A DNA stretch of 64,000 nucleotides, from the NCBI GenBank assembly GCA_028278325.1, contig JANQEO010000361.1, positions 202 to 64,201 of the forward strand, given 5' to 3'. Both the position numbers and the translations under genes were made by a program. The stretch comes from Candidatus Binatia bacterium (GTDB taxonomy: Bacteria; Desulfobacterota; Binatia; UBA1149; JAJCZL01). The notes beneath the pieces were generated by a model, which did not search any database, was not told the origin of the DNA, and saw only the letters and a program-made list of their open reading frames with translations. This document shows, piece by piece, positions 14,169 to 62,208 of this stretch (the first letter of the stretch is position 1; the number at the start of each line of letters is the position of its first letter).

Positions 14169-14891
14169 GCTGAATGAACGCGTCTAGTCTGTCAGTTGTT
14201 TGGAAGAATAGCAGGGCTGTTGCTCGGTTTTCCGACCCGTATCAATGCACGATGCCACAGTAGCAAGGATACTCACTGTCTACCCGGTCACATAGTGAAC
14301 TGTTAAAGCCGTCATCCGGCAAATCGACTCGGCAAATCAGCGATTCACCACGAGCCGATTTACGGGTGACAGCCCTAGTACTTTCGATATCCTGTGAGCT
14401 CAAACGGGGAGTCTCTCGTCCGTAACGCTTTGCCCCCCCATGCGCCATCCCACGCTCGTCGTCCCGCAACGACCGGTGCATACCTCGTCGAAAACCAAAG
14501 CCCCGACAATTTCAGACATGTTGCCCGTACTGCCGCGTTAGATGTCCCCTAGACTCCGGCAGCTAGCTGCAGTCGCGATCGCGAAACCAGCTTACTCAGT
14601 CAGCGGACGTACAACCAATTCTCCTGCGTCGATCTGAGGCGCAACTCTGAAAGACATGCGATTCTCGAGTATGAACGAATAGTTCCTTCTGTACGTCGGC
14701 TACCTCTTGCAGCCAATCTTTGACGCGACCGATCCAGAGATAGCCCGCTGCAACTCGTATTCCGACTCCTTATCGAATACAAGGCGAGTCGCTAGACTCC
14801 CGACTTATGGCGGACGTCTTGTTCTCTTGTTGGTGCTCCAGTCTTCTCAAGAATTGGAGCCTCCGAGAACTCCTGGATCGTACATAGTACG

Positions 14892-15620
14892 CTATTGTCG
14901 GAACTCCTTGTTCTTGACTCGTTCATACATCTGGAAGTCCCTGCGCATAAACTCTTTCAAGTCAGCGAGGAGCGCAGGAGACAGTTCATCTGCAAAGTTT
15001 TCCCCAGACCGAAAACGGTTCGCTCCGACCGTCCGGATGACCCTTCGTTTCGCAAAGTCCACCAACGCCTGCACTCGGCCAGCATTCGCCTGGACTGGCG
15101 AGGGATTCCTGTACGATACCGTCAGAGATTCACCGATTTTCTCGCTCATGTACTCGGCGAACTCATCAATATGTTCATAAAGAAAAATCGAGTCAACGCC
15201 TATTTGATCATCCTCATCCTTAACGAAGTCAAACTGGGGCCTGAACGATGCGTATGCCGGTGGATTTACGGACATATAGTCCTCGACAAACCTCGCAAAT
15301 GACATTCCGTAAGTGCTCGTCCCGTAACTCGGGTGGCTCGGGTTCCTGATTGCCAGCCGTGATCGAAACCGAAAGTGGCTATTTAGCCAGGACAACGGTT
15401 CCCGGACTAGACAGACCGTCTCCAGCGGCCGTTCTCCAATACTCTCTCGCAGGTACGGCCTGAGATACTGACTGAATGTCCTATAGCTTGTATGTCGCAG
15501 CGAGGGTTGACCACCCAAGACGACATTACAGTAGGGTAGCAATGCTGCTTCTATGGAGTTCGATGCGCATTTGGGTACCAGGATTAGCGCAAAGTTGAAT
15601 TCGGTGCTCACAAGCATCAC
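14892..15620 (-). CDS. Sulfotransferase family 2-like protein
   Basis: FALILVPKCASNSIEAAL resembles the PK(x)(G/A)S(T/S)S 5'-PSB loop. VCLVREPLSWLNSHFRF resembles the R-x-P-x-x-R/W-x-x-S 3'-PB motif. The gene lies in the low-GC island. Confidence 0.55.
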   Translation of the reverse strand: MMLVSTEFNFALILVPKCASNSIEAALLPYCNVVLGGQPSLRHTSYRTFSQYLRPYLRESIGERPLETVCLVREPLSWLNSHFRFRSRLAIRNPSHPSYGTSTYGMSFARFVEDYMSVNPPAYASFRPQFDFVKDEDDQIGVDSIFLYEHIDEFAEYMSEKIGESLTVSYRNPSPVQANAGRVQALVDFAKRRVIRTVGANRFRSGENFADELSPALLADLKEFMRRDFQMYERVKNKEFRQ

Positions 15621-16046
15621 ATTAGCCCAGCGAATAAATTCGTTCGATTCGGTCCACGCGGAATACGCCTAATCACGCGATCATTGATCGCTGTACAACT
15701 TCAATGCACTGCTGTATTCGATCCCATATCGCTACCTTGCGACGCAATCTTGGAGGATCTCGAAGGTCTGTGACAGAACACACTGTTGCGGCCTGACCCG
15801 CGTACCAGCTCTAGTGATTTCCAGGACTATACGTACCACGCGAACTATGCTCCAAGCTGCTGTTGTCATAATCTACAAAAGGCTGTGTGGTTGCTGATTG
15901 GAGTAGTGACGTCGCCAGGCGCAGACCTCGTCACGCGCATGCTTAGAGGCAGCTAAGGAAATGCTGCTTGAGAAACGGGTATTGAAAGCTAGCATCGAGC
16001 TCGAAAACGAATGCACTCCAGCCAGAGTACCGAAAAGTGCCAAGTC

Positions 16047-17996
16047 TCATCTGGAAGGTTCTGGCAGGCGTGAATAACGCCACACGCGAGTCGCTCCGTC
16101 ACGGCCAAGGAAAACTTCTTGGAAGCCGACCGCTTCCATAGTACTCCAGATTCCATCGCCGTAGTATCGCATCAGGTTGCCCTCGAGCTCCCCACTACCG
16201 ATAACAAGGACCTGCTTCCCACGGAACTCGGACAAGATGTTCCTCAGCATACTGCCCGACCAAATCTGAGGGACACCGGTATAGAGGTTAAGCATTCGAC
16301 CCTCCCGCATGAATGAAGAGTTTCTGCTTGTATTCAAGGAGCGCATGTAGTAGTCGATTCGGTCTCCAAGGTAGTAGACCTGCTGTTGTGTATCAACTGC
16401 AATGACAATGTCATCTTGGTCCAAGTGCTGTGCCAATACGAACTCCGCAGCACCTTTATGGTCCACTCCGCGATGCCCCGTCAGGCGAGGGAAATCTTCG
16501 TGCCGTGCATTTACGTTGTACCAGAAATCAGAGGGATTCACGAAGGCCAGAAGTACAATGATAGCAGCAGCTATGTAAGCAGCTCTAGGGAATCCAGGCA
16601 GTCGATCGCCAATGCGGTCGAACACTTCCACAACGGCGGCAAGAAGAGCGAGCAGAAACAGCGGCAAGAAACCGATGACGTAGCGGCTCGGAATGTACTG
16701 ACCAGCCAAGAACCCCATGAGGAGGAGGGGAGCGAAAACCGCCATCAAAAAGAACAGCATGTGGTCCGACACAGAGCTACCGCGGCTGAACTGCACAGCA
16801 AGATAGCTAAAGACCAGCCCGTAGATTATGACGCCAAGAGGAGAGTACCTGCTGAAGGAAAGATAGGTTTTTGGATAAGGCGTGCCTGCGAGAGACTCGA
16901 TCAAATCATTGATACTCTGCACTTCCGGGGACTGCCACAGCAGACGAGCGTGTACTACGAACAGCACTGCCAACAGTCCGCCGAGAGCTATCGGAACCTT
17001 CACTGAGCAACCGGCCCGAACGAAGAAAGCCGTTCCGAGCAGGAAGAACAAGCCCGCCAGGTGGTACTGCACGAGAACCCCAAACGTCACAGAGAACCCA
17101 AGGCAGACGACTGCAAGAAGGAGCCAAGTCGTTCCGACGACCGCCAGCTTCCGAATTCTCGCAATCACCAGGGCGGCGCCCGCCGCGAGCGCGGCCCCCA
17201 ACATGCCGACCATCATCGAAGCCAAGTCGATGGGAATAGCCAGCATACCTCCCGGCTCATCTTCCATCGGCGACTGGCGCTCCACCAGCGGAAAGTACTG
17301 CGAACCGATCCACTCGCTGAGCTGGCGCTCAACGAGCACGCAAGCCAAGAAGGCAACCCCACCGGCCAAGAGCATTGGCAAGGATCTTCTCACCAAGCCC
17401 GGGAAAAAGAAGAGCGGAATAGAAAACACGGCGAGGGCATGAAAAGACACCGCGAAGAGCGCAGCAGCAATTGACGAGAGAAAGGAGACGATGGATTTGG
17501 TACGCTCCCACCAAAACAGAGTTACCCCAAACAGCATGATGCAGGTAACGTAAACGCCGTACATCCTGGCCGTCTGGCTATGCTCGATCATGCAGGGTAG
17601 CAACGCAAATACAACGGCGAAGAAGAGTGCCCAGTACACGGACAAGAAACGCCTAGCGAGCCAAAATGCGATGAAGATACCGATACTACCGACAAGTGCT
17701 GAAGGCAGGCGCAGTGCCCATTCGGTGTCCCCGAATACTGACGTCGAAACAGACATCATCAGGAGCTGCGGCAGTGCACGAACATAGTGCATGCCACTCG
17801 GAAGGGTCGGAGATTGCGTCTCGACGAGTGCACGCGTTGCGAGCGCCATAACGTCTTCGTCGCCATGCAGGCCCAGCGTCCCCAGACCCCAGAATCGCAA
17901 GAAAGCTCCGCCAACAACGACGGCACCAAGCAGTGCCCAGTGCTGGATTAACATCTGATCCTCTGGAAAGGACTCAGACCATAGGGATCCCTTCAC
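16047..17996 (-). CDS. GT-C fold glycosyltransferase (ArnT/PMT_2, GT39/GT83-like) using a polyprenyl-phosphate-sugar donor
   Basis: The 649 aa product has about 12 or more TM segments. The N-terminal loop is RFWGLGTLGLHGDEDVMALATRAL (DE/DD motif), followed by GDTEWALRLPSALVGSIGIFIAFWLARR. There is a soluble C-terminal domain. Confidence 0.72.
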   Translation of the reverse strand: MKGSLWSESFPEDQMLIQHWALLGAVVVGGAFLRFWGLGTLGLHGDEDVMALATRALVETQSPTLPSGMHYVRALPQLLMMSVSTSVFGDTEWALRLPSALVGSIGIFIAFWLARRFLSVYWALFFAVVFALLPCMIEHSQTARMYGVYVTCIMLFGVTLFWWERTKSIVSFLSSIAAALFAVSFHALAVFSIPLFFFPGLVRRSLPMLLAGGVAFLACVLVERQLSEWIGSQYFPLVERQSPMEDEPGGMLAIPIDLASMMVGMLGAALAAGAALVIARIRKLAVVGTTWLLLAVVCLGFSVTFGVLVQYHLAGLFFLLGTAFFVRAGCSVKVPIALGGLLAVLFVVHARLLWQSPEVQSINDLIESLAGTPYPKTYLSFSRYSPLGVIIYGLVFSYLAVQFSRGSSVSDHMLFFLMAVFAPLLLMGFLAGQYIPSRYVIGFLPLFLLALLAAVVEVFDRIGDRLPGFPRAAYIAAAIIVLLAFVNPSDFWYNVNARHEDFPRLTGHRGVDHKGAAEFVLAQHLDQDDIVIAVDTQQQVYYLGDRIDYYMRSLNTSRNSSFMREGRMLNLYTGVPQIWSGSMLRNILSEFRGKQVLVIGSGELEGNLMRYYGDGIWSTMEAVGFQEVFLGRDGATRVWRYSRLPEPSR

Positions 17997-18463
17997 TTGG
18001 ACGTCCCGAAACTAGATCAAATCGAATACGAAGAATGCCAAACTCTCTGGCCGGGACTGTATCTCCAGCCGCCTACACGCCTGCCAGATCGAACACCGAT
18101 AGGGTCACCTCACCGCTACGCAACTGCCTGCCTGTGACGCTAGGCATCCACTCTTCGAACAGCCACCGCAGCTGATTTGACATTCACTCCGTCCGTTTGC
18201 AGAGACCGGCTGCTTTATTGGCTCTTTAAAGCCGACCAGTTCCGAACCTCAAGCGGAGTCGCAGAGTTGGCTAATCGGCAATGTCATACCTGGTGGATGC
18301 CCAATTGAGCAAGACGGCTGGCCGCCATGTATGTCAGAGAGTCTCGCGTGGCAAGGCAAATAGAACTCTGCCCTAGCGGTCTCGCCCTAAGTAACCGTCA
18401 TCTTGTCAGCATGCCGACTCTCAGCCCCAAATATAAGCCAAACAGGCTGACAAGTGATGATGC

Positions 18464-19909
18464 CTAGTCTTGAAGTGTGGGCGGTTTCGGCCGGGGCGGT
18501 TCATTTCTCGGAACATCGGACACTATCGGCACATCCGAGTCTGCCGGCACATCCGAGACCGCAGTGCCTTCGACCTCCGCCGCCATAGCTTGTAACCACT
18601 CTTCGACGTTGGTGTACCCATCGCCGTCACTGTCACCATTGGGATCCGACGGAACACTAAGGTTTCGGGTGTTTCTCGCATAGTTCGGCCATCCGCCTGC
18701 GTTCGCAGCGCAACGACTAGTACCGTTGTTGGCAACGCAGTTGATAATCCGACCGGTCCGATTTCTGATATCCGCTATTACTCGTGCATCTACGGCGTTC
18801 CTTTCCGCCGGCCTGGTTCCGGCATTACTCAATACATAGTCCAACGCTCGACCATCGCGGGTGGGACGCACGTCGAGTCCGTCTGTCCATGTAGGCGGGA
18901 CATCTGACACAAAGGTATTCAATGATCGATTCGTACGATTTTCCACGATTGACCACTGATCTGTGCCCATACTTGTCGCCGTGTTGTCAGACAAGTACAC
19001 GCGGCTACTGCTGAGCATCGCGTTTGACCCGTCACCATCCCTTTCACCGAGGATTCGGATTGGTACTGAGGATGCACGCGTATCAGGGCCGTCGATAAAT
19101 ACGTTGCCAACTATGGTATTTCTCGATGATATGCCATGTCTGTTGTACAGCATGACCTGCGCGGTCTCGGTATTGTAAATAACATTGTTGACGAAGACGA
19201 AATCGGAAGCGTTTGTCCTCGGATTTCTCGCATCGTTGTGTGCGAAGATATTGCCGATCATCGCAATACGACTGCGATCTGAATTTGTACTTAGCAGTGC
19301 ACCGTACGAGTGTGCACCTTTGGGATGGATTGACTCGTTCAGAGCTTCGGAAATAATGGAATTTGAAATGGTCACATTGTCCCACGCCCGGTAGGTCGAA
19401 ATGCCCTCGTCAACCGACCAGCTTATGGAGCAGTGATCGATAACGGCGTTTCGAATCGGGTTCGGCGTCTCGATCTTCAGTGTGTCTCGGACACGGGGAT
19501 CGAGGCCACCCGGGTCGTCACCAACTCGGACGGCAATGTGTTGCACCAGAACGTCCGACGCCCGGATGGCGAGAGGAGCTCCGCGAAGCAGAATTCCCGG
19601 TGCAGGGGCTGTTTGTCCAGCAATAGTCAGGTTGGGGTTGCTGACGGTGAGACCAGACGACAAACGGATGACGCCAGATACCTCGAAGATGCAAATACGA
19701 GGCCCTGATGCTGAAACACAGGCCCGCAATGAGCCACTACCATCGTCATTCAGGTTTGTGACCCGGATGATCGAACCGCCTCGGCCGGCGGGTGTAGTCA
19801 TTCCGAACCCGTGTGCACCGGGAATCACTGGCAGATCTGCCAACACGTTCCCGCACAACAGCCCGGTAGTCAATGTAACTATGAACTTCCCACTCAGTTT
19901 GCCAAGCAT
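18464..19909 (-). CDS. Secreted pectate-lyase-like right-handed beta-helix protein with a C-terminal Ca-binding-type (TSP3/dockerin-like) motif
   Basis: The probable start is the ATG at 19909, giving the signal-like MLGKLSGKFIVTLTTGLLCGNVLA; the ORF itself extends to 20056. The product contains GFGMTTPAGRGGSIIRVTNLNDDGSGSLR, a PL1-like N-terminus. It has many N/I/V-rich beta-helix turns. The tail reads DPNGDSDGDGYTNVEEWLQ, followed by an SDVP x3 repeat. Confidence 0.7.
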   Translation of the reverse strand: MLGKLSGKFIVTLTTGLLCGNVLADLPVIPGAHGFGMTTPAGRGGSIIRVTNLNDDGSGSLRACVSASGPRICIFEVSGVIRLSSGLTVSNPNLTIAGQTAPAPGILLRGAPLAIRASDVLVQHIAVRVGDDPGGLDPRVRDTLKIETPNPIRNAVIDHCSISWSVDEGISTYRAWDNVTISNSIISEALNESIHPKGAHSYGALLSTNSDRSRIAMIGNIFAHNDARNPRTNASDFVFVNNVIYNTETAQVMLYNRHGISSRNTIVGNVFIDGPDTRASSVPIRILGERDGDGSNAMLSSSRVYLSDNTATSMGTDQWSIVENRTNRSLNTFVSDVPPTWTDGLDVRPTRDGRALDYVLSNAGTRPAERNAVDARVIADIRNRTGRIINCVANNGTSRCAANAGGWPNYARNTRNLSVPSDPNGDSDGDGYTNVEEWLQAMAAEVEGTAVSDVPADSDVPIVSDVPRNEPPRPKPPTLQD

Positions 19910-20442
19910 CTTGCTTACCCCACATCGTCGTAATGAATTCAACATCGGACTCCATTGGTAGAGCACTGCACCAGTCAGCGAAGCGATGGCGAAACCACGA
20001 AGATGCATCGGCCAACTGGCCGAAGCAAGAGTACCGAGACGTGGCAACCCCGCCATCTTAGGAAGCTAATCCCCTTAGACCGGTGGCTTTGCGTCCTTGC
20101 CTTTCGACAAGTATGCCTTTCGCACGAGAGCATGCTGACACGCTGTTTCTTGAATTGTCAAACGACAAATCCCGATATTTGCCAAAGCCGACAGTTGATA
20201 ATCCCGCCCAAGGTCTACTGACACGTGCTAGCAGCACGTATCGCTGAAATTATGGTGAATTCGGAGACGCCCGTCGCATAGCAGTGCTGCAACTGAGTCA
20301 GAAGAATGGCATACCGTTGCGCCAGATGGAAACTGTCGTCATTGTGCGACAACCAATATTCAGGCCAGTCCGGCAAAACGCCTTTAGGGCCATAATGTGT
20401 GAGACATACAGCGGCATCCAATCCGCTTTCTGGTCGCTAGTG

Positions 20443-21243
20443 CTATATTGCGGCGTTGTCCGGAGCCGAGAATACATAGACGCTGCATCCGCCTTCGGGG
20501 CTAGCCTTCACTCGTTCCAGCGTGAATTCCCTTTTTCTCGCAAAAGTCAAGACTTCGTCTTCTGTTGCAGTTTCATAAGGAAGCCCCCCAAGCCAGTCGA
20601 TCACGTCATGGTAGACGTTCATGCCTCTGCCTAGTTTCTTGTTCCACGCGAATGGGTTCTGAAGATGTCTTGCACGAGACAGCATAAATCTTCCGATTCT
20701 CTTCCACTCCATGAGACGTTTTCCGAATCGGGACGACTTGTTGTACTTCCTTTTCAGTTCCAAGTCGCGACTGTAGCGGGGCCCCTTCTTATATAAGGAA
20801 ATCCATATATGACCGCCGGGGGCAACCAATCCGAACGCGTTGGCTACAGCCTCCCACATCTTTCCGGTGTGGTGCAATACGCCCCAGGAATAGACAACGT
20901 CGAACTTGCCCAAGGATGCACAGTAATCACCGTCGAGAATGGATCCGTGCTCAACCACCCAATTACTTGGCGATCCGGCCCGCTGCCACAGCGTTCTTGT
21001 CGCGCTTACGCTGTGTTCATCGTAGTCAAATGAGTGCACTGACTTCGACCCAAGTCGATGAAACGCCAACGAATGGATACCTGATCCGGATCCAATGTCG
21101 AGCACGGTCCCATCGCCGAAGTCGAGGTTGTCAAGCCACAGCTTTATGTCATCCTCTGCACGCTGTACCTCGTCATCAGCTACCGTATCTAAATAGCTGA
21201 TCCAGTTCTTTCCGAAAGAGAAGGTTACTTTGTCGTTTGGCAT
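20443..21243 (-). CDS. Class I SAM-dependent methyltransferase
   Basis: GTVLDIGSGSGIHSLAFHRLGSKSVHSFDYDEHSV covers motif I and the post-I acidic residue. GKFDVVYSWGVLHHT is motif II/III-like. Confidence 0.85.
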   Translation of the reverse strand: MPNDKVTFSFGKNWISYLDTVADDEVQRAEDDIKLWLDNLDFGDGTVLDIGSGSGIHSLAFHRLGSKSVHSFDYDEHSVSATRTLWQRAGSPSNWVVEHGSILDGDYCASLGKFDVVYSWGVLHHTGKMWEAVANAFGLVAPGGHIWISLYKKGPRYSRDLELKRKYNKSSRFGKRLMEWKRIGRFMLSRARHLQNPFAWNKKLGRGMNVYHDVIDWLGGLPYETATEDEVLTFARKREFTLERVKASPEGGCSVYVFSAPDNAAI

Positions 21244-21339
21244 TGGTGATAAAACTCCGACCGTCCCAGGATAGAGATCGGCTTTTCTTCAGTTACATCG
21301 TTACCTAGTTGAACCCACATGGGTGCGAGCCCGACTGTA

Positions 21340-22461
21340 TCAATTATCCAGTATAGACCGCGTCTTGCGATAACGGCGCTTTAAGCCTGCACCGATCAGC
21401 TCGAGCTCAAACCGCAGCTTTCGCTTCTGAACTTTGGCCCAGATCAGCCTGTTCCGATCCGTGGAAAGAGACCGCTTGTACTGACCGCCGCCGGCGAGAA
21501 AGTCGTAGGCCTTCAGATTGCTTTTTGCGTTGAATCGAACGGCCTCAGCGTGACACAGCCAACCCGGTTTCATCTTCCCGTCCTCACTGTAGACGAGCCC
21601 CCCCTGGTAGAACAGGACCCTGCCGTTGAACACGAAATTGTACAGGCAGCCAACCGTGTGATCGCCGGCCGTGACCCGCAGCAACTGGATTTCTCCGCTG
21701 TCGAAGCGGTTGCGGATCAGCGCCGTGTGGAAGGACAGGGAGTACTGCCGACTGAAAGCGCCCTCGACACCCCTGTGGTCCCAGCGCTCCCTGTGAAGCT
21801 CGACGAGCTCATCAAACATCTCCAACGCCCGGTCGGCGTTCGCTGCAACTTCGCACTCAATAGCGCCGTTCTTCGAGTAGGCTTCGTAGCACCGCCGCAT
21901 TTGTCGACGAGTATTGCTGCTCAATAGACTTGCGTAGTCACCCTCCTTCTCGCGAACGGCCTCCAGGTTCACGTAAGGTGAGGGATCGTCGCGCACGACC
22001 ACCGGCCGCCAGCGCGGTGGGCACCGGCTGATCAGCGAATCCGCCACTGCATCCACCGCATGGCCCGGAAAGACGAATTCGTCCCAGGATTCCGTTCGAT
22101 CGAGCTCCTCCAGCACGTCCCAGATCCTTTCGGGCGGAGTCCCTTTCATGAGTACCTGGTTGTACTCGATCGACAGTCGATCGATCTCCGGTACTCCCGT
22201 GGCGTTGACGAAGACCGAGCGGACGGGGATGACCCGCTTCCGCCACAGGCCGCGGATTCCCGCGAAGAAGGCGAGCACCGGTGACCCGTCGAGGTACCCG
22301 ACCACCAGCTTCAGGGCGACCTCGCGAGGCAAGGAATCGAGCCAAGTCTCGACCCAGCCGGGGGACAGGAAGTAGTCTACCTCGAGCTCGCTGGTCAGTT
22401 CGTTCCAGATTTCGCGAATCTGCTCTCGATCGGTGTGCGCGTCCAGGAAGTGTAGTTTCAT
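21340..22461 (-). CDS. FemAB/CelD-like (BioF2-like, Acetyltransf_6-type) acyltransferase
   Basis: The preferred start is the ATG at 22461, preceded by AGGA; the ORF extends to 22548. The C-terminal segment reads LFYQGGLVYSEDGKMKPGWLCHAEAVRFNAKSNLKAYDFLAGGGQYKRSLS. This matches the SpG...D(F/L)(L/G)xGxxxYK signature shared with the 30487 and 32271 genes. Confidence 0.7.
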   Translation of the reverse strand: MKLHFLDAHTDREQIREIWNELTSELEVDYFLSPGWVETWLDSLPREVALKLVVGYLDGSPVLAFFAGIRGLWRKRVIPVRSVFVNATGVPEIDRLSIEYNQVLMKGTPPERIWDVLEELDRTESWDEFVFPGHAVDAVADSLISRCPPRWRPVVVRDDPSPYVNLEAVREKEGDYASLLSSNTRRQMRRCYEAYSKNGAIECEVAANADRALEMFDELVELHRERWDHRGVEGAFSRQYSLSFHTALIRNRFDSGEIQLLRVTAGDHTVGCLYNFVFNGRVLFYQGGLVYSEDGKMKPGWLCHAEAVRFNAKSNLKAYDFLAGGGQYKRSLSTDRNRLIWAKVQKRKLRFELELIGAGLKRRYRKTRSILDN

Positions 22462-22592
22462 TGTATCCTGCTGACTGCCTGGCGGGATGCCCCGACCGGC
22501 ATCCGCATCCTGCCCCGCGCCGCCCTCTACGTCCTTGAATTGAATCACATTCGACTATCAGGAATCTGCGACCCGCGGCGGAATCCCGTCGA

Positions 22593-24272
22593 CTAACGGA
22601 AGCGGCTGCGCAGAATCCGGGCATCCGCCAGTGTCAGCCCGCGCGAATAGGATAATGTGTGGACACCGGTTACCGAGCGGTCCCACAGTGGTTCGATAGA
22701 CGTGACCGGCTCCTCGGCATACTCGGTCGGGCTGAGAGCCGTGATCCTCATGATGTTGATGCCGTAACCGTAGCGGCCGCTGCAGTTCTGGGCTGGCCTG
22801 AACAGCTCGCCGTTCCGCTCGACTATCCGGCCCGCCGGTCGTGCGGCCTTGACGTCGGAGGCGACGGGATTGAGCGGATGCGGCGTCCACGGACCGGAGA
22901 TCGGATTGTTCGTATGAAACAGGAACAGCTCGTCGTAGGTCGACGACCCCGGGTTTTCGGCCATACCGAGGAACAGGTACCAAATACCCGCGCGCTGGAG
23001 AAGCGTCGGGTCCACGGCCCGGACGCCCTCGAACAGGTTCGCGTGGAATTCCCATTTGTAAGGAAAGTCGACACAGCGGTAGATCGGAACCACTTCTGCC
23101 TGCCGGGCCTCCGCCAGCATGTACCAGGCCCCTTCGTAGCTGAACACGAACGGATACGACAGGTGATGCGGCTCCTCGATGAGCGTAGTCGGCCTCTCGT
23201 GCTTGCCCTCCGGATCCATCGCGATGTGCGCAATGCGCCCCGTGCCCTCGGCGTATACCAGTTCCTCGATAAAAACGTGGTGCGTACTCCCGTCGTGGAC
23301 GACGAATGGGTCCGCCCAGAACCGGTCGCGCGGCGGCACGAGACGCGTGAATCGATGCATCGACGTCGCGATGTCCGGCTCGAAGGCATACAACAGGTTC
23401 CATTGCTCGAACCTGAAGTAGCCCGCGACCCGTCGCCTGACTCGCTGCAGGAACTTCTTCGCGAGCAACGCTGCAAGCTCCCTGTTTCGGGGCCGCTTAT
23501 AGAGCCTGTGGCTGTAGAACGCCGGGAAAGGGTTTTTTCGCCTGACTTCCTCGAAGAATCGCTCCTCTCCGAGCGCGCCCAGCCGATCCACCATCCTCGG
23601 CAGGAATGACGCGGCCGTCCAGAAGCGGGGATTGTTGTTCAGGATCATCGAACGATCGTTGGTGTGGGCCCAAGAGCGATACAGGACCGTGCCACCGTCC
23701 AGGTCCTCGCCCAGGATCTGCAGGACGGCCCCGGACTCCGGCCACGATTCCATCACCTCCCAGAAGCCGAACGGTCCGCCGCGGTTCACGAGACTGTCGC
23801 CGTGATGGTAGGACCACACGCCGTACTTCGCCGCCTCCAGGACGTCGCCTTTGAGTATACGGAAACCGAGCCTCACCAGTATGTCGAGACGATGATCCCT
23901 GATCTGCTCGACATCGTCGTCGGACAGGTAATCGCAAAATCTGGTCTGCCGCGGCAGGACGCCGATCTCGACGACGCCGGGCAGGAGAGTCTTCACATCC
24001 GTCGTCGCGAAAGCGTCCGGCTCGCAGTGCACATTCTCCATCAGCCTGCGCCTGAAACGGTGCAGACCGCGCGCGATCAAGGCCGAAGGAATCTCCCGCC
24101 ATCTCTCCCGGATCTTCTCCGGCAGACTGTACGCTTTCCGCTGAGCTCGATTGCGGACCACCAGCACGATTCCGGCGTTGTCGCTGTTCAGGAGCCGGGT
24201 GATCATCAAATGCACCCACGCGGGCTGATCGTAGTCGTCGATCAGCAGGCCTATCCTCAGCTTTTCCTTCAT
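22593..24272 (-). CDS. Fusion protein with an N-terminal formyltransferase-fold domain and a C-terminal beta-propeller-like (GH43-like / glucosamine-inositolphosphorylceramide-transferase-like) domain
   Basis: The N-terminal half contains DILVRLGFRILKGDVLEAAKYGVWSYHHGDSLVNRGGP...SGAVLQILGEDLDGGTVL. This aligns by eye to the N-x-H-x-SLLPxxRG ... D-x-G formyltransferase core, with Ser in place of the Asn. The C-terminal half contains RFWADPFVVHDG...YPFVFSYEGAWYML...DPTLLQRAGIWYLF...RPAGRIVERNGELFRPAQ. Confidence 0.6.
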   Translation of the reverse strand: MKEKLRIGLLIDDYDQPAWVHLMITRLLNSDNAGIVLVVRNRAQRKAYSLPEKIRERWREIPSALIARGLHRFRRRLMENVHCEPDAFATTDVKTLLPGVVEIGVLPRQTRFCDYLSDDDVEQIRDHRLDILVRLGFRILKGDVLEAAKYGVWSYHHGDSLVNRGGPFGFWEVMESWPESGAVLQILGEDLDGGTVLYRSWAHTNDRSMILNNNPRFWTAASFLPRMVDRLGALGEERFFEEVRRKNPFPAFYSHRLYKRPRNRELAALLAKKFLQRVRRRVAGYFRFEQWNLLYAFEPDIATSMHRFTRLVPPRDRFWADPFVVHDGSTHHVFIEELVYAEGTGRIAHIAMDPEGKHERPTTLIEEPHHLSYPFVFSYEGAWYMLAEARQAEVVPIYRCVDFPYKWEFHANLFEGVRAVDPTLLQRAGIWYLFLGMAENPGSSTYDELFLFHTNNPISGPWTPHPLNPVASDVKAARPAGRIVERNGELFRPAQNCSGRYGYGINIMRITALSPTEYAEEPVTSIEPLWDRSVTGVHTLSYSRGLTLADARILRSRFR

Positions 24273-24979: not shown

Positions 24980-25109
24980 TCACTCCGGTACCGGGCAGGC
25001 TTCCACGTCGCGGTAATGAGACCTGTTCCGACGCACTATACCGCCAGGCTTCCTATGATTGCCGCTTTGGTCGGCAGCCGCAGGTCAGGCGTGCCAAAGG
25101 TTGCTCAGG

Positions 25110-26369
25110 ATGAAGCAAGTGGCGTCGTCAGCCGAGCGGAACGACAAGGTATCTCATCTCGACCGGCGGCGGCCGGATCCGCCGCGGCTACGCGTACTCT
25201 GCCTGAACTACGAATACCCGCCCATGGGCGGCGGCGCCGGCAACGCAACCCAGTATACGGCTCTCGAACTCACTCGGCTGGGCCACACGGTCCACGTCCT
25301 GACGGCACGCCTGCCCGGCCAGTCCGACGTAGACACCGGCGACGGTCTCGTCGTACACCGTACGTTCAGCCGAAGAATCCACCTTCACCAGGCAGGCCTG
25401 ATCGGTGCGCTCACCTTTCTGCCGAGCGCGTTCCTGAGGCTCCGGAAGCTGGCGAAAGCGCACGACTACGACATCTTTCATTTCTACTTCGGCCTGCCTA
25501 CCGGCATGCTGGCGCTGTACGTCCGCTGGGTGCTGAAGAAGCCCTATATCATTGCCCTCCGGGGCTCGGACGTCCCGGGATATGACAACACCCGCTGGTA
25601 TCTGAGACCGCTACACGGTCTCCTCGCTCCTCTCAACCGGTACGTCTGGTCGCGAGCGGCTGCGGTGACGGCGCTGAGCAACAATCTGCGCGAGCTGGCC
25701 CTGGCCACGGCGCCGAACCTGCCGATTCGCGTCGTCGGCAACGGCATCGACACCGAAGTCTTCCCTCGGCGGCCGAAGCCGCCGACAGGCAAGCGGATAC
25801 GACTGCTGTGCGTCTGCAGACTGGTGCGCAGGAAGGGTCTCGAGTACCTGCTGAGGGCCATGCCCGAACTGGCCCGATCCGGCATGACGCTCGATATAGT
25901 CGGCACCGGCGAATGCTCCGACGAAGTCGAATCGCTGGTTGAACGTCTCGATCTGACGGAATCCGTGAATCTGGTCGGCTACGTGCCACGGGACGGCCTG
26001 GCGGACTATTACAACAGAGCGGACATCTTCATCCTGCCGTCCACGAGCGAGTCCTTCGGGCAGGTACTTCTCGAGGCGATGAGCTGCGGGTTGCCGGTCG
26101 TCGCATCCCGCGTAGGCGGCGTGCCGGAAACGCTGCATGACGGAGACGGCGGGCTGCTGATAGACCCCGCCAGTTCCGAGTCGATCGTCGCCGCAATCCG
26201 GAGACTCGCGTCGGATCCCGCTGCACGAACCGCCATGGGCGCATACAATCACGAGCTTGCGCGCAATGCCTTCCAGTGGTCCGGCGTGGCCGAGAAGTAC
26301 GAAGCCCTTTATCTGCAATGTCTTGGCGAAAGCAATCCAAAGGCGCGCGCACGCCTGCAGCAAGACTGA
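25110..26369 (+). CDS. Glycosyltransferase family 4
   Basis: The product contains LRVLCLNYEYPPMGGGAGNA at the N-terminus and FILPSTSESFGQVLLEAMSCGLPVVASRVGGVPETL as the E-x7-E region. I chose the ATG at 25110 as start; the ORF opens at 25059. Confidence 0.85.
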   Translation: MKQVASSAERNDKVSHLDRRRPDPPRLRVLCLNYEYPPMGGGAGNATQYTALELTRLGHTVHVLTARLPGQSDVDTGDGLVVHRTFSRRIHLHQAGLIGALTFLPSAFLRLRKLAKAHDYDIFHFYFGLPTGMLALYVRWVLKKPYIIALRGSDVPGYDNTRWYLRPLHGLLAPLNRYVWSRAAAVTALSNNLRELALATAPNLPIRVVGNGIDTEVFPRRPKPPTGKRIRLLCVCRLVRRKGLEYLLRAMPELARSGMTLDIVGTGECSDEVESLVERLDLTESVNLVGYVPRDGLADYYNRADIFILPSTSESFGQVLLEAMSCGLPVVASRVGGVPETLHDGDGGLLIDPASSESIVAAIRRLASDPAARTAMGAYNHELARNAFQWSGVAEKYEALYLQCLGESNPKARARLQQD

Positions 26370-26453: not shown

Positions 26454-27728
26454 GTGAGTTTCGCCGAACGCCTGCGCGTCATCGCAAAGACCTCGCACTT
26501 GCTGCGTACGCAATGGTGGCCGGGCGACCGAATAGAGTCGTACCAGGACGCCCGTCTGCGGGAGATCCTGTCGTGGGCATCATCGCGAGTCCCGTACTAT
26601 CGGGACCTCGGGATTGCGAACGACGGCTTGCCCCCCCGGCAGTGGCTGAACAGGTTTCCAGTGCTTTCCAAGGCGCAGGTTCAATGCCGCACCGAAGACC
26701 TGTGTTCAAAGGACGAGATCGAGCGCGGCGTCTTTACGTCTCGCACTTCCGGAACGAGCGGAGAGCCGACTACCACCTATTTCGACAAGGAATCGTGGCT
26801 ACTCTGCAAGTATGCCCTGAAGGCGAGGCGCGTCTTTGCGGCAATCCGTCCTTTCGGCCAACGGCTGCTGTTCGTATCCGAACGTGCCGACGGCGCCGAG
26901 TTCTCAGCACCCGGCCGGAGACTTGCGGATCCCGTGCTTGCGGCGCGGCGCCTCTACATCGACTCACCGGTTTCGGAAAACGTCGGGGCGTTGATCGAGT
27001 TCAGACCCACGGTCCTTCAGGGGCCGCCCTCATATCTCGAATACATGGCCGAAGAATGCGGCAGGAGCGATGCCCCGGCTCTCAGGATTCCCGTCGCCTT
27101 CACGAGTTCCGAACTGCTGACAAAGGCGACTCGGGACAGACTCGAGTCGAGTTTCGGCAGCCGCGTCATAGACGTCTACGGCTCGACCGAATTCAAAGAG
27201 ATGGCGGTTCAGTGCCCGTACGGGCGTTACCATATCAACTTCGAGAGCGTGTTCCTGGAAGAACGGGCGGACCCGTCGACCGGGTTCCCGCGCCTCCTGA
27301 TCACGACTCTCGTGAACAAGGCCATGCCGCTCATCCGCTTCGACATAGGGGATCACGGATCGATCGGTTTCGAGCCCTGCGAATGCGGGAGGGAGAGCCC
27401 TCACATCAAGAGCCTGCACGGCAGGGAAGCCGAGCTCCTCCGGTTCGACGATGGCCGCGCTATCTCCCCGTTCGTTCTGACGACGCTCATCGGCAGATTC
27501 AGCGAAGTCAGGAATTTTTCCGTCCTGCACACGGCGCCGGATCAGGTCGTCGTGAAGGTGTTCGCCGAACCGTCACTACCCGTTCACCGGCAGACGGCAC
27601 TGCTCGACGAGATTCGGGCCCACTTGCCGGCCGGTACGTCCCTGACGCTCGCGATGCTCGAAACCCGTCTTCCGCCGGGGAAGCGAATAGCGGTGCGGCG
27701 AACGTTCGACGCAGTTGAGAGCGAATGA
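26454..27728 (+). CDS. PaaK/CapK-like adenylate-forming enzyme (phenylacetate-CoA ligase family)
   Basis: The product contains LREILSWASSRVPYYRDLG and RTSGTSGEPTTTYFDKESW (the P-loop-like AMP motif). It also has VIDVYGSTEF and C-terminal PPGKRIAVRR. Length and layout fit the CapK/F390-synthetase-like group. Confidence 0.8.
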   Translation: MSFAERLRVIAKTSHLLRTQWWPGDRIESYQDARLREILSWASSRVPYYRDLGIANDGLPPRQWLNRFPVLSKAQVQCRTEDLCSKDEIERGVFTSRTSGTSGEPTTTYFDKESWLLCKYALKARRVFAAIRPFGQRLLFVSERADGAEFSAPGRRLADPVLAARRLYIDSPVSENVGALIEFRPTVLQGPPSYLEYMAEECGRSDAPALRIPVAFTSSELLTKATRDRLESSFGSRVIDVYGSTEFKEMAVQCPYGRYHINFESVFLEERADPSTGFPRLLITTLVNKAMPLIRFDIGDHGSIGFEPCECGRESPHIKSLHGREAELLRFDDGRAISPFVLTTLIGRFSEVRNFSVLHTAPDQVVVKVFAEPSLPVHRQTALLDEIRAHLPAGTSLTLAMLETRLPPGKRIAVRRTFDAVESE

Positions 27729-28963
27729 CATTGATCGTCGAGACGGGCGGCTGCCTGGTCTATTGCGGTGACGACCTGTCCCTGGCGGCGGCGAACAGCG
27801 AAGTATCGGCGAAGTCGCCGCTCCGTCGAACCCGCCGGACGCCGGACGCCTTATCGCGTCTACTGAGCGACGCGCGCAACGTGCGATGGCGCGAGCTCGT
27901 GCCGCGCGCGTGCGTGATCCGCGCGCCCGAACGGGACTCGGGAGAGATCCTGACGGTTGGGTTCTCCGGGTCTTTACGCATCGTCGATGCCTTCGCCGCC
28001 GGCGTCTTCGGCCACGGCGACTATGACGCCGAACCCGCCCGCCTGAGCGCAATTCACGGCGTCGACATACTGATCTCGGACCATGCTCTGGCCGATCTGC
28101 CTACGCGATTCAGTCGGCCGTGCATTCGTATCCCTCCGTGGGTTCGGCAGGAGCGGCCCATCGCCGCGGATTGGACGGAGACCCTCGCCGGGCTGTCGTC
28201 GAAGCTGAGAAGCGAGCTCCGCCGCTGGATCAGACGCCAGGGCTACACAGTCGCTATCAGCGCCGGTGACGCCGCGATCCGCGATTATTATCGGGAGCTG
28301 CACCGTCCGTATCTCAGCGGTCGTTTCGGCGATGCAGCGATCGTGGCCCCGGAGTCGGCGTTCGTCCGGCAGCGCCGCGATGCGCTCCGCCTCGACCTGC
28401 TTCGGAATCGGTCACCCGTCGCGGCCAGCTTGCTGGAAGTGCACCAGCAGCGGCTGGCGATTCGCAGCAGCGCCATGCACCCGGACGCGCCTCCCCTGCC
28501 CGGCCGAGCCGACGTTCTGGACTACTTCAGCCTACTGATGGGGCAGCTGCTCGATTGCCGGACTCTCGATTTCGGCCTCAGCCGTCCGCATCTCGACAAC
28601 GGCGCGTTCCGCTACAAGACGAAGTGGGGCGCACGGCCCCAGGCCGTCGGCGGGCTGCTAAAGGCCGACGTCCGCGTTTATCCGCTCGAAAGGACCGAGG
28701 CGACGCTCGCGTTCCTCAGACGCAATCGCTTCCTGCAACGCGGCGAAGAAGGCCTGGTGCTTCGCATGCTCTACGATCGCGCCGCCGCGTGCAGGGATGA
28801 GGATTTGCCGGAGCCGCTCGGCCGGCTCACCCGGCCGGCGGGCGTCGAACGCGTTTACGACCCCGACGAGCTGCCGGCGCCCAAGGCCGAAACGCCCGGC
28901 GTCGTCTATCGCCCGCTGCGTGGCGCGAACGATCCCTACCGCATACCCGGACCGAGGCGATGA
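27725..28963 (+). CDS. FemAB/GNAT-like acyltransferase candidate (uncharacterised)
   Basis: ATGA overlaps at both ends (27725-27728 and 28960-28963) couple it translationally to its neighbours. The C-terminal third reads DVLDYFSLLMGQLLDCRTLDFGLSRPHLDNGAFRYKTKWGARP. This resembles the FemAB-like F(R/K)xKWGA ending. The N-terminal 150 aa are unrecognisable. Confidence 0.45.
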   Translation: MTLIVETGGCLVYCGDDLSLAAANSEVSAKSPLRRTRRTPDALSRLLSDARNVRWRELVPRACVIRAPERDSGEILTVGFSGSLRIVDAFAAGVFGHGDYDAEPARLSAIHGVDILISDHALADLPTRFSRPCIRIPPWVRQERPIAADWTETLAGLSSKLRSELRRWIRRQGYTVAISAGDAAIRDYYRELHRPYLSGRFGDAAIVAPESAFVRQRRDALRLDLLRNRSPVAASLLEVHQQRLAIRSSAMHPDAPPLPGRADVLDYFSLLMGQLLDCRTLDFGLSRPHLDNGAFRYKTKWGARPQAVGGLLKADVRVYPLERTEATLAFLRRNRFLQRGEEGLVLRMLYDRAAACRDEDLPEPLGRLTRPAGVERVYDPDELPAPKAETPGVVYRPLRGANDPYRIPGPRR

Positions 28964-62131: not shown

Positions 62132-62208
62132 CCGGCATCCGGCCTGTCTGGAACGACCTTCACGAAATCGATCAGAGCAGCCGAGCACCGAAAGGAAGAT
62201 CCGACCCA

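What the first reader, a model, noticed from the sequence alone, without database searches (positions are those of the whole stretch)
22593..24272. Formyltransferase-fold domain (Asn replaced by Ser) fused to a beta-propeller-like domain
Seen in sequence: residues around GVWSYHHGDSLVNRGGP ... SGAVLQILGEDLDGGTVL align by eye with the formyltransferase core, as in Fmt/ArnA (xNxHxSLLPxxRG ... D). The catalytic His and Asp positions are retained, but Ser occupies the Asn position. After a roughly 100 aa linker the C-terminal half shows repeated motifs: WADPFVV, YPFVFSYEGAWYML, DPTLL..GIWYLF and RPAG..VERNGELFRPAQ. These are reminiscent of five-bladed GH43-like propellers and of proteins annotated as glucosamine inositolphosphorylceramide transferase-like. 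Inference: either an N-acyl/formyl transferase acting on an amino sugar and tethered to a carbohydrate-binding or processing domain, or a non-catalytic scaffold. I know of no characterised function for this fusion.
Basis: partly seen in the sequence, partly recalled or inferred. Interest (0 to 1): 0.65.

Follow-up and report, generated by a model that had tools for sequence, protein, structure and literature searches.

The report
Formyltransferase-like domain fused to Ghy-type propeller
This gene encodes a widespread but uncharacterised two-domain cytoplasmic protein of bacterial surface-sugar synthesis, whose best-conserved part is the same unexplained propeller module found alone in the Acinetobacter baumannii outer-core locus (orf1/ghy) and at the front of plant GINT1.

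Summary
ORF 22593-24272 (-) encodes a 559-aa soluble protein. Its N-terminal domain has the Fmt/ArnA formyltransferase fold. His and Asp are retained and Ser replaces the catalytic Asn, a fixed family trait (107/111 diverse members). Its C-terminal domain is a five-bladed propeller (Pfam GINT1_N, 1.9e-33; GH117/GH43/GH62-like fold). The model is confident (pLDDT 94, pTM 0.91).

The fusion is a large family: at least 584 species genomes across many phyla. It sits almost always in surface-polysaccharide loci, often next to GT4, AsnB-type amidotransferase and UDP-glucose-dehydrogenase-like genes.

The propeller is the indispensable part. About 9% of members and the rhizobial clade have lost the Ser/His/Asp motif but keep every propeller-centre residue (D321, H370, D421, R478, R492, Q495, H538 and others). 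The same propeller stands alone as A. baumannii OC-locus orf1/ghy. It is also fused to GT4, to a methyltransferase-annotated protein and, in plants, to GT64.

It fails membership of Pfam Formyl_trans_N and of GH43. The reaction is unknown. My best guess is a glycan-tailoring enzyme with a propeller pocket for an anionic sugar and an accessory acyl-transfer or hydrolase domain.

The parts
22593..24272 (-). Complete ORF, 559 aa plus stop. Soluble two-domain protein with no TM segment or signal peptide.
   Evidence: ORF; max Kyte-Doolittle 19-residue window 1.15; 2289+ homologs, top 120 full-length; start context.
23658..24272 (-). Residues 1-205: alpha/beta core with the formyltransferase (Fmt/ArnA/PurN-type) fold. 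It carries an inserted long helix at res 50-78.
   Evidence: sequence/profile hits to Fmt, ArnA and GDP-perosamine N-formyltransferase; Foldseek Fmt 3.6e-8, ArnA about 1e-7; secondary structure. No Pfam PF00551 hit at E<=1.
23757..23822 (-). Residues 151-172, GVWSYHHGDSLVNRGGPFGFWE: the variant catalytic loop. S154 is at the Asn position and H156 at the catalytic His position. It also holds the family-specific H157, D159, R164, W171 and E172.
   Evidence: Alignments. Conservation S154 107/111, H156 101/111, H157 108/111, D159 104/111, R164 104/111.
23682..23735 (-). Residues 180-197, SGAVLQILGEDLDGGTVL: the strand-loop carrying D192, at the position of Fmt Asp146 / ArnA D140.
   Evidence: D192 conserved in 104/111.
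23487..23648 (-). Residues 209-262: structured helical subdomain between the two catalytic-looking domains. It is not a flexible linker.
   Evidence: helices 209-220, 223-234, 236-246; block pLDDT 84-97.
22596..23486 (-). Residues 263-559: GINT1_N / Orf1(Ghy)-type five-bladed beta-propeller, including the closing helix and strand (W291). The conserved centre is D321, E336, H370, E388, D421, H465, N468, R478, R492, Q495, Y501, E520, H538 and D550.
   Evidence: PF24793, 1.9e-33; GH117/GH43/GH62/GH159 fold matches; near-invariance across all architectures; A. baumannii orf1 aligns to res 263-551.
21340..22548 (-). Downstream gene, 44 bp after the stop on the same strand: FemAB/CelD-like GNAT (Acetyltransf_6). 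Probably co-transcribed here, but not a conserved partner elsewhere.
   Evidence: Pfam; no terminator-like site in between; no recurrence in 80 related loci.
20443..21243 (-). Next downstream gene: SAM-dependent methyltransferase. A terminator-like hairpin follows at 20324-20307.
   Evidence: recurs in only 3 related loci.
25059..26369 (+). Divergently transcribed GT4 glycosyltransferase. GT4 is the commonest neighbour class of the family.
   Evidence: Pfam; GT4 in 32 of 78 loci, 9 adjacent; GT4 fused to the family in Pyrinomonadaceae.

Best explanation
It is a soluble, cytoplasmic two-domain tailoring or accessory enzyme of surface-glycan assembly (EPS, O-antigen or LOS type) that works alongside a glycosyltransferase.

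Shown:
- The C-terminal unit is a five-bladed propeller of the GINT1_N / A. baumannii Orf1(Ghy) type.
- Its set of polar residues is almost invariant in every architecture in which the module occurs: D321, E336, H370, E388, D421, H465, N468, R478, R492, Q495, Y501, E520, H538, D550.
- The N-terminal unit has the formyltransferase fold, with Ser-x-His-His...Asp in place of Asn-x-His...Asp.

Inferred:
- The propeller is the primary functional site. It keeps the two Asp that clan GH43/GH117/GH32 propellers place on blades I and III. It carries an invariant Arg (R478), 57 residues after D421, where those hydrolases have the general-acid Glu, and it has a second Arg, a Gln, a Tyr and His residues nearby.
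- I therefore expect a pocket that grips an anionic sugar (a uronate, or a sugar-phosphate, nucleotide-linked or undecaprenyl-diphosphate-linked intermediate), not a classical inverting glycosidase.
- The formyltransferase-like domain adds a second step on the bound sugar: transfer or removal of a small acyl (possibly formyl) group, using H156/D192 with S154.
- Lineages that do not need that step let its motif decay.
For: Fold and family:
-.

Selection:
- The propeller centre is 97-99% conserved over 110 representatives at 32-45% identity, and the N-motif 91-97%.

Asymmetric decay:
- 10 representatives lose two or more N-motif residues with no propeller change; only 3 show the reverse.
- The Rhizobium homolog has a dead N-motif (WAFNFSD) but an intact propeller centre.

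Modularity of the propeller:
- Stand-alone in the A. baumannii OC locus and in Sphingomonas.
- Fused in a methyltransferase-annotated protein in Azospirillum.
- Fused to GT4 in Pyrinomonadaceae (P0175, L072, L080).
- Named after plant GINT1, which my own knowledge says carries a GT64 domain.

Biosynthetic context:
- GT4 in 32 of 78 loci; AsnB in 21 (8 adjacent, 20/22 on the same strand); UDP-Glc-DH-like in 13 (7 adjacent or with overlapping stop/start).
- Flippases, Wzy and initiating transferases are also present.
- The whole window is an EPS locus.

Localisation:
- No TM segment or signal peptide.

Experimental hint:
- ISAba1 insertion in A. baumannii ghy gives a clearly shortened LOS (PMC4110982).

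Blade placement:
- D321, D421, R478 and H538 lie on, and H370 just before, the first strand of successive blades in the DSSP string.
Against: - No activity, ligand or substrate is known for any member.
The geometry of S154/H156/D192, the folate pocket, the blade assignment of R478 and the inter-domain interface are inferred from sequence spacing and the secondary-structure string only.
- The A. baumannii ghy insertion may act through polar or antisense effects, as its authors state.
- Neighbour genes are typical of any polysaccharide locus, and no partner is obligate. P0024 sits in a non-glycan context.
- Ninety percent of members keep the N-motif, so the N-domain may be as important as the propeller in most lineages.
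- Some deviating sequences may be gene-calling or alignment errors.
Confidence: 0.4

Rival explanations
1. Folate-dependent sugar N-formyltransferase. The N-domain uses N10-formyl-tetrahydrofolate to formylate an amino sugar, Ser replaces Asn as the oxyanion hydrogen-bond donor, and the propeller replaces the variable C-terminal substrate-binding domain of ArnA or sugar N-formyltransferases.
For: - The catalytic His and Asp positions and the RGG...W and ...TG...D-x-G motifs align with Fmt, ArnA and GDP-perosamine N-formyltransferase.
- The fold matches the ArnA formyltransferase domain over about 265 columns.
- Some loci contain DegT aminotransferases or deacetylases that would create free amines.
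- A stand-alone S-x-H-H domain in Natronorubrum is translationally coupled to a polysaccharide deacetylase.
Against: - No PF00551 hit at E<=1.
- The canonical Asn is absent in 111/111 diverse sequences.
- The SLLP loop is replaced by polar H-G-D-x-x-V-N.
- DegT is near only 9 of 42 full-flank loci, and CE4/PIG-L deacetylases near about 4 of 80.
- The window's amino-sugar genes have their own PglD-like acetyltransferase.
- The motif is lost in about 9% of members and in rhizobia while the protein persists.
Confidence: 0.2
2. Non-catalytic adaptor. Both domains only bind ligands and organise a glycosyltransferase complex at the inner face of the membrane.
For: - The propeller is repeatedly found fused or adjacent to glycosyltransferases of unrelated families.
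- The N-motif is dispensable in some lineages.
- Neither domain passes the curated threshold of an enzyme family.
Against: - Fourteen charged or polar propeller residues are conserved at about 97-99% down to 21-31% identity relatives, a pattern typical of active sites rather than docking surfaces.
- No membrane anchor or known protein-interaction repeats.
Confidence: 0.15
3. Ordinary GH43-type glycoside hydrolase that trims or degrades the polysaccharide, with an unrelated N-terminal appendage.
For: - Fold match to GH117/GH43/GH62.
- Weak PF04616 hits in some homologs, and one above threshold.
- A. baumannii orf1 was originally named ghy on this basis.
Against: - The query has no PF04616 hit.
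- Homolog hits are below the gathering score (24.7-28.9 against 32.2 bits) and in shifting blade registers. The one hit above threshold (P0142, 43.6 bits) is also in a blade-shifted register.
- A profile search against PDB sequences gives only E about 0.3.
- An invariant Arg sits where the general-acid Glu is expected (inference).
- The protein is cytoplasmic and embedded in biosynthetic operons.
- Kenyon et al. withdrew the ghy name after updated searches.
Confidence: 0.07

Closest known systems
Acinetobacter baumannii OC-locus Orf1 (formerly Ghy), present in all 13 group A outer-core loci including OCL1
   Same: Homologous to residues 263-551 (31% identity, tblastn 2e-41; 34%, 3.9e-48 in the reverse search). 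It keeps every propeller-centre residue except the variable E448. It is a cytoplasmic-type protein inside a glycan-assembly locus full of glycosyltransferases. Its function is unknown.
   Different: It is a stand-alone 296-aa propeller with no formyltransferase-like domain. It sits in an LOS outer-core locus, not an EPS locus. The S472-D473 pair is replaced.
Methionyl-tRNA formyltransferase (Fmt) and the ArnA N-terminal formyltransferase domain; sugar N-formyltransferases such as GDP-perosamine N-formyltransferase (PDB 5vys)
   Same: Same fold. Aligned catalytic His and Asp, an RGG motif, and a G-x-(S/T)-x-x-x-h-x-x-x-x-D-x-G strand-loop.
   Different: - Ser instead of the catalytic Asn.
- The SLLP loop is replaced.
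- Extra invariant H157, D159, W171 and E172.
- A long inserted helix (res 50-78).
- The OB-like C-terminal subdomain is replaced by helices plus a propeller.
- No Pfam PF00551 hit.
Plant GINT1 (glucosamine inositolphosphorylceramide transferase 1) N-terminal domain, Pfam PF24793
   Same: The query passes the curated threshold of this domain family (116 bits against 27). In both cases the propeller accompanies a glycosyltransferase.
   Different: According to my own knowledge of the plant protein, the propeller in plants precedes a GT64 domain in a Golgi membrane protein. Here it follows a formyltransferase-like domain in a soluble bacterial protein. Only profile positions 58-266 of 304 are matched. 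The domain's role in GINT1 is also unknown (no relevant statement found).
GH117 / GH43 / GH62 five-bladed propeller glycoside hydrolases
   Same: Same fold (Foldseek 3.8e-9 to 1e-6, TM about 0.45-0.57 on the target). Asp is present on the first strand of blades I and III.
   Different: Not a sequence-level member. An invariant Arg lies at the expected general-acid position (inference). The protein is cytoplasmic and in a biosynthetic context.
Natronorubrum bangense WP_006067267.1 'formyltransferase family protein' (278 aa)
   Same: A stand-alone copy of the N-domain with the same S-Y-H-H-G ... R-G ... W-E ... L-D-G-G signature (44% identity over the core).
   Different: It has no propeller. 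It is archaeal and is coupled to a polysaccharide deacetylase gene.

Membership tests
Formyl_trans_N (Pfam PF00551) / N10-formyl-THF-dependent formyltransferases | Scores above the curated Pfam threshold | tested here: not met
   No PF00551 hit even at E<=1. No NCBIfam hit.
Formyl_trans_N (Pfam PF00551) / N10-formyl-THF-dependent formyltransferases | Formyltransferase N-domain fold | tested here: met
   Foldseek Fmt 3.6e-8, ArnA formyltransferase domain about 1e-7 to 7e-7. Profile vs PDB sequences: Fmt 3.5e-5.
Formyl_trans_N (Pfam PF00551) / N10-formyl-THF-dependent formyltransferases | Catalytic Asn (Fmt N108, ArnA N102) | tested here: not met
   Ser at this position in the query and in 107/111 diverse members, never Asn.
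Formyl_trans_N (Pfam PF00551) / N10-formyl-THF-dependent formyltransferases | Catalytic His and Asp (ArnA H104, D140) | tested here: met
   H156 and D192 align to them. Conserved 101/111 and 104/111.
Formyl_trans_N (Pfam PF00551) / N10-formyl-THF-dependent formyltransferases | H-x-S-L-L-P folate-loop motif | tested here: not met
   The aligned residues are H-H-G-D-S-L-V-N in the query, family consensus HHGDNxVN.
Formyl_trans_N (Pfam PF00551) / N10-formyl-THF-dependent formyltransferases | Binds N10-formyl-THF and transfers formyl | not testable with these tools
   Needs coordinates with ligand docking, or biochemistry.
Sugar N-formyltransferase pathway (ArnA/VioF/WbkC type) | Co-located aminotransferase producing the amino-sugar acceptor | tested here: inconclusive
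   DegT within 10 kb in 9 of 42 full-flank loci. In the window DegT is 30 kb away and is paired with a PglD-like acetyltransferase.
Glycoside hydrolase family 43 (Pfam PF04616) | Scores above the curated threshold in a consistent register | tested here: not met
   The query has no hit. Five homologs score 24.7-28.9 bits against 32.2, in varying blade registers. One member (P0142) scores 43.6 bits but is blade-shifted. Profile vs PDB sequences gives E about 0.3.
Glycoside hydrolase family 43 (Pfam PF04616) | Five-bladed beta-propeller fold | tested here: met
   Foldseek GH117 3.8e-9, GH43 6e-8 to 1e-6, GH62, GH159.
Glycoside hydrolase family 43 (Pfam PF04616) | Asp (base), Asp (pKa modulator), Glu (general acid) triad | tested here: inconclusive
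   D321 and D421 are invariant on blades I and III. At the spacing where the Glu is expected (57 residues after D421) stands the invariant R478. E448 is variable.
GINT1_N (Pfam PF24793) | Scores above the curated threshold | tested here: met
   116.3 bits against 27, E=1.9e-33, residues 317-524 to profile positions 58-266 of 304. All 120 best homologs carry the same precomputed hit.
A. baumannii Orf1/Ghy-type stand-alone propeller | Significant full-domain sequence similarity and a shared conserved residue set | tested here: met
   tblastn 2e-41 over res 263-551. Reverse tblastn 3.9e-48. 14 of 15 tracked residues identical. The locus is identified as the OC locus by aspS/ilvE flanks and gene order, matching PMC4172580 and PMC3628348.

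The most novel reading that the evidence does not exclude
The Asn-to-Ser change has turned a formyltransferase scaffold into a Ser-His-Asp-type acyl-enzyme catalyst that no longer needs folate. It would take an acyl or aminoacyl group from a thioester or ester donor, for example carrier-protein-bound groups as suggested by the NRPS/PKS, AMP-ligase and FemAB-like neighbours. Alternatively it would remove one. It acts on an anionic sugar held in a glycosidase-derived propeller that evolution has repurposed from hydrolysis to biosynthesis by swapping the general-acid Glu for Arg. The same repurposed propeller would then be the unexplained function of A. baumannii LOS orf1/ghy and of the N-terminal domain of plant GINT1.
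Probability: 0.15. Interest if true: 0.8.

Novelty: new variant of a known kind. Interest (0 to 1): 0.5.

Why it matters
The family is large: 3,744 clusters at 50% identity match the N-domain profile, and at least 584 species genomes across many bacterial phyla and some archaea encode a relative. It sits in the loci that build capsules, O-antigens and biofilm polysaccharides, yet it has no curated name and no known reaction.

Its conserved propeller links three open loose ends:
- orf1/ghy, present in all group A outer-core loci of the pathogen A. baumannii. OCL1 alone is in 73.6% of sequenced genomes.
- The unexplained N-terminal domain of plant GINT1.
- 'Formyl transferase' annotations that are attached to propeller-only proteins.

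The residue sets defined here make the question directly testable by mutagenesis: S154/H156/H157/D192 on one side and D321/H370/D421/R478/R492/H538 on the other. A formyltransferase fold working without its Asn and SLLP loop, or a GH43-like propeller working biosynthetically with Arg in place of the acid, would each extend what these folds are known to do.

Tried and rejected
- **Pfam and NCBIfam on the query.** Only GINT1_N hit. There was no formyltransferase or GH43 model and no NCBIfam hit.
- **Source names.** They were uninformative: 'hypothetical', and once 'methionyl-tRNA formyltransferase'.
- **Literature.** Searches for the fusion, for GINT1_N and for the HepII/III-AsnB module found nothing on the bacterial protein. 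One search failed on syntax.
- **Mapping propeller catalytic residues through sequence alignment to GH43 structures.** Rejected, because the hits are insignificant and blade-shifted.
- **Geometric analysis of the model** (Ser-His-Asp distances, folate pocket, domain interface). Impossible, because coordinates are not exposed.
- **Search for an obligate partner gene.** None was found. The window's downstream FemAB-like GNAT and methyltransferase do not recur. CE4/PIG-L deacetylases are rare. The GT4 fused in P0175 has no specific ortholog next to the target in the window.
- **Short N-domain hits in the representative library.** These are mostly contig-end fragments with scattered end points, not a clean stand-alone class.
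- **Promoter and terminator scan.** Counts were no better than in shuffles.
Full report
**1. Observation**

A GGGGA Shine-Dalgarno-like motif lies a few bases upstream. Every quoted motif is present.

A phmmer search of the protein against PDB sequences finds B. anthracis Fmt (4iqf) at E=0.0034 over residues 118-205. The alignment places S154 under the catalytic Asn, H156 under the catalytic His and D192 under the catalytic Asp. A profile of 24 N-domains improves this to 3.5e-5 and also brings in GDP-perosamine N-formyltransferase at about 0.09. A second family member (P0142) independently hits Fmt (2.6e-4) and ArnA (0.013). There the printed alignment pairs the Ser with ArnA N102, the His with H104 and the Asp with D140.

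Pfam finds only GINT1_N (PF24793) on residues 317-524 (1.9e-33, 116 bits against a cutoff of 27). It finds no Formyl_trans_N hit even at E<=1. NCBIfam finds nothing.

**2. Structure**

An AlphaFold2 model built on an 89-sequence alignment is confident: mean pLDDT 94.1, pTM 0.91. The high pTM for a two-domain chain indicates a defined packing of the domains. The layout is:
- an alpha/beta domain (1-205) with an inserted long helix (50-78);
- a helical subdomain (209-262), not a floppy linker;
- a beta-rich domain of 19 strands from residue 287, consistent with a five-bladed propeller.

Foldseek against the PDB returns two separate sets of matches and no full-length match:
- GH117, GH43, GH62 and GH159 five-bladed propellers, best 3.8e-9;
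- Fmt and the ArnA formyltransferase domain, 3.6e-8 to 7e-7.

Coordinates of the model are not exposed to scripts. Residue-level geometry could therefore not be measured.

**3. The family**

The word-indexed search finds more than 2,289 homologs. The best 120 are all full-length (about 550-570 aa, 42-59% identical) and all carry only PF24793. Their names are 'hypothetical', and once 'methionyl-tRNA formyltransferase'.

An exhaustive profile search with the N-domain against 1.84 billion cluster representatives finds 3,744 proteins at E<=1e-3 and 1,161 at E<=1e-30. Of the best 150, 111 are full-length fusions. Most of the 39 shorter ones have scattered end points, as expected of contig-end fragments.

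A scan of one genome per species finds at least 584 species with a relative. They include Gammaproteobacteria (the nearest, at 58%, is an uncultured Woeseiaceae), Acidobacteriota, Bacteroidota, Gemmatimonadota, Planctomycetota, Desulfuromonadales, Verrucomicrobiota, Nitrospinota, Myxococcota and others.

**4. Conservation, and which domain matters**

I compared 110 diverse full-length representatives, 32-45% identical to the query.
- N-domain motif: S154 107/111, H156 101, H157 108, D159 104, R164 104, D192 104. The canonical Asn never appears.
- Propeller: D321 110, E336 108, H370 109, D421 108, H465 108, R478 110, R492 110, Q495 110, E520 110, H538 108, D550 109.

Ten representatives have lost two or more N-motif residues, usually including the catalytic His, with no change in eleven tracked propeller residues. 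Only three show the reverse, and those look like poor gene calls.

The rhizobial homolog has a completely decayed N-motif ('WAFNFSD...') but an intact propeller centre. So both domains are under purifying selection in most lineages, but the propeller is the indispensable part.

**5. Modularity**

A tblastn search against annotated plasmid and chromid records shows that each half also exists on its own.
- A 278-aa Natronorubrum 'formyltransferase family protein' is a stand-alone N-domain with the same S-Y-H-H-G signature. It is coupled to a polysaccharide deacetylase gene.
- A 312-aa Sphingomonas protein annotated 'formyl transferase' is in fact only the propeller. It lies between a glycosyltransferase and a flippase.
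- A 296-aa A. baumannii ORF between aspS and ilvE is a stand-alone propeller (31% identity over residues 263-551, 2e-41). By position and gene order it is ghy/orf1 of the outer-core locus OCL1.
- The propeller also ends a 1,256-aa methyltransferase-annotated protein in Azospirillum.
- It is followed by a GT4 domain in P0175 and in two Pyrinomonadaceae genomes.

One alignment of all these architectures shows 14 of the 15 tracked centre residues conserved in nearly all of them; E448 varies and the Sphingomonas stand-alone also differs at R492 and E520.

**6. Literature on the stand-alone propeller**

- Kenyon and Hall named the A. baumannii gene ghy from a 2012 GH43 Pfam hit. [quoted passage not shown]
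- In 2014 it was renamed orf1 because the Pfam hit had disappeared. The best hit outside Acinetobacter was then a 'putative formyl transferase' of Ca. Nitrosoarchaeum koreensis (PMC4172580). That hit is most simply explained as a member of the fusion family studied here; I did not test this.
- An ISAba1 insertion in ghy gives a clearly shortened LOS. The authors caution that the IS promoter opposes the five preceding genes (PMC4110982).
- In 2023 orf1 was reported in all 13 group A loci and was still listed as hypothetical (PMC10327509).
- No paper on the bacterial fusion, or on the role of the GINT1 N-terminal domain, was found.

**7. Genomic context**

The entire 64-kb window is a surface-polysaccharide region. 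It contains:
- several sulfotransferases, many GT4/GT2 genes and a WecG-type transferase;
- Wzy, two Wzx-like flippases, Wza and Wzi;
- an AsnB-type amidotransferase, three FemAB/CelD-like GNATs and a SAM methyltransferase;
- GDP-mannose and GDP-fucose genes, a UDP-glucose dehydrogenase and a UDP-GlcNAc 2-epimerase;
- a heparinase II/III-like gene;
- a PglF/PglE/PglD-like set.

The target is followed after 44 bp by a FemAB-like GNAT and then the methyltransferase, with no terminator-like site between them. These two genes do not recur next to homologs elsewhere.

I clustered all ORFs of 78 related loci. The recurrent neighbours are:
- GT4 in 32 loci, 9 adjacent;
- AsnB-type asparagine synthase in 21, 8 adjacent, 20 of 22 on the same strand;
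- GT2 in 15;
- NAD epimerase/dehydratase in 15;
- UDP-glucose/GDP-mannose dehydrogenase family in 13, 7 adjacent or with overlapping stop/start;
- DegT in 11;
- heparinase II/III-like, AMP-ligase and MBOAT in 7 each.

Conserved modules are:
- HepII/III-AsnB-GT4-dehydrogenase-TARGET-GT2 in Pyrinomonadaceae;
- GT4-TARGET-AsnB-GT4 in Chitinophaga-type Bacteroidota;
- AsnB-GT4-(Wzx)-TARGET in Granulosicoccaceae.

The dehydrogenases resemble UDP-glucose 6-dehydrogenases most. The AsnB genes resemble the XrtA/PEP-CTERM EPS amidotransferase model most. Both are below the equivalog cutoffs.

In Rhizobium sp. CCGE532 the dead-N-domain homolog directly follows NRPS, NRPS/PKS and condensation-domain genes. 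It is flanked by a PPTase, DegT, a flippase, an initiating transferase, GT4 and Wzz.

No partner is obligate, and one homolog sits in a non-glycan neighbourhood. The protein has no hydrophobic segment, so it should act on the cytoplasmic side.

**8. Mechanism: shown versus inferred**

Shown:
- the two folds;
- the Ser-for-Asn substitution;
- loss of the SLLP loop;
- the residue sets under selection;
- the biosynthetic context;
- the primacy and modularity of the propeller.

Inferred from the DSSP string and residue spacing:
- D321, D421, R478 and H538 lie on, and H370 just before, the first strand of blades I to V, and so should line the central funnel.
- D321 ('ADP') and D421 ('VDxT') correspond to the blade I and blade III Asp of GH43/GH117/GH32-type enzymes.
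- R478 lies 57 residues after D421. From my own knowledge of those families, GH117 and GH43 place the general-acid Glu 58-63 residues after the second Asp.

An Asp/Asp/Arg centre with a second Arg, plus Gln, Tyr and His residues, looks like a site for an anionic sugar, not a classical inverting glycosidase. Candidates are a uronate, a sugar phosphate, or a nucleotide- or lipid-diphosphate-linked intermediate. The frequent coupling to UDP-glucose-dehydrogenase-like and AsnB-type genes fits a uronic-acid theme but does not prove it.

The N-domain keeps the His-Asp pair of formyltransferases next to an invariant Ser. It could still use formyl-THF with Ser as the hydrogen-bond donor. Alternatively it could have become a Ser-His-Asp acyl-enzyme catalyst. 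I cannot distinguish these without coordinates or experiments.

My working model is a propeller-centred glycan-tailoring enzyme with an accessory acyl-transfer or hydrolase domain. My confidence is about 0.4 for the mechanism and much higher for the fold, family and pathway assignment.

**9. Comparison and membership**

- It works like, and descends from, formyltransferases and GH43-clan propellers.
- It fails the membership tests of Pfam Formyl_trans_N: no hit, no Asn, no SLLP.
- It fails those of GH43: no hit for the query, sub-threshold or register-shifted hits in homologs, and no identifiable acid Glu.
- It is a member of Pfam GINT1_N.
- It belongs to the same propeller family as A. baumannii Orf1/Ghy.

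**10. Verdict**

This is a real, strongly conserved, uncharacterised two-domain protein. It is a new variant of known kinds and not a categorically new system. Interest is moderate. Its value lies in three things:
- the size of the family;
- the link to A. baumannii orf1/ghy and plant GINT1;
- the clear, testable residue-level hypotheses.

Noticed in passing
window 1-64000: The whole window is one very large surface-polysaccharide region. It has at least three sulfotransferase-like genes (3230-4171, 14892-15620, 62095-63060), a UDP-glucose dehydrogenase (41069-42457), a heparinase II/III-like gene (48811-50703) and an AsnB-type amidotransferase (6661-8535). Together these suggest a sulfated, uronic-acid-containing (glycosaminoglycan-like?) EPS in a Woeseiaceae-like gammaproteobacterium.
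   Followed up: partly
window 21340-22548, 30487-32262, 32271-33371: There are three FemAB/CelD-like GNAT (Acetyltransf_6) genes in one locus. One (591 aa) has a long unassigned N-terminal extension. They may add aminoacyl or acyl decorations to the polymer.
   Followed up: no
window 26513-27718 and 27725-28963: Two consecutive ORFs of about 400 aa have no Pfam hit. They lie between the divergent GT4 and a Wzx-like flippase and were also called as genes on the Logan contig L001.
   Followed up: no
window 14000-22000: G+C drops to 0.52-0.55 here, against 0.59-0.67 elsewhere in the window. The stretch covers the sulfotransferase-like, PMT_2-like, beta-helix and methyltransferase genes just downstream of the target. 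It may be a horizontally acquired cassette.
   Followed up: no
window 42597-44573, 53928-54848, 54638-56074: There is a PglF-like dehydratase, a PglD-like hexapeptide N-acetyltransferase and a PglE/DegT-like aminotransferase, that is, a bacillosamine-type diacetamido-sugar pathway. The acetyltransferase and aminotransferase ORFs as listed overlap by about 200 bp, so one start codon is probably further downstream.
   Followed up: partly
L089:7881-8819 (Sphingomonas paeninsulae WP_162986867.1): A 312-aa protein annotated 'formyl transferase' consists only of the propeller and has no formyltransferase-like domain. The name looks like annotation carry-over from the fusion family.
   Followed up: partly
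L087:1-13284 (Rhizobium sp. CCGE532 pRCCGE532c): An NRPS, NRPS/PKS and condensation-domain assembly line is embedded in a polysaccharide locus (PPTase, DegT, flippase, sugar transferase, GT4, Wzz). The dead-N-domain homolog lies directly downstream. This suggests a lipopeptide- or acyl-decorated glycan in rhizobia. Similar homologs occur in at least 17 Rhizobium records.
   Followed up: partly
L072:9983-12910 and L080:9971-12859 (Pyrinomonadaceae): ORFs of about 975 aa fuse the whole two-domain protein to a GT4 glycosyltransferase. In the related locus L055 the orthologous GT4 (51% identity) is a separate gene 2.8 kb downstream.
   Followed up: partly
window 33409-35454: A GAF-domain histidine kinase gene sits inside the polysaccharide cluster, on the opposite strand to its neighbours. 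It is a candidate local regulator.
   Followed up: no
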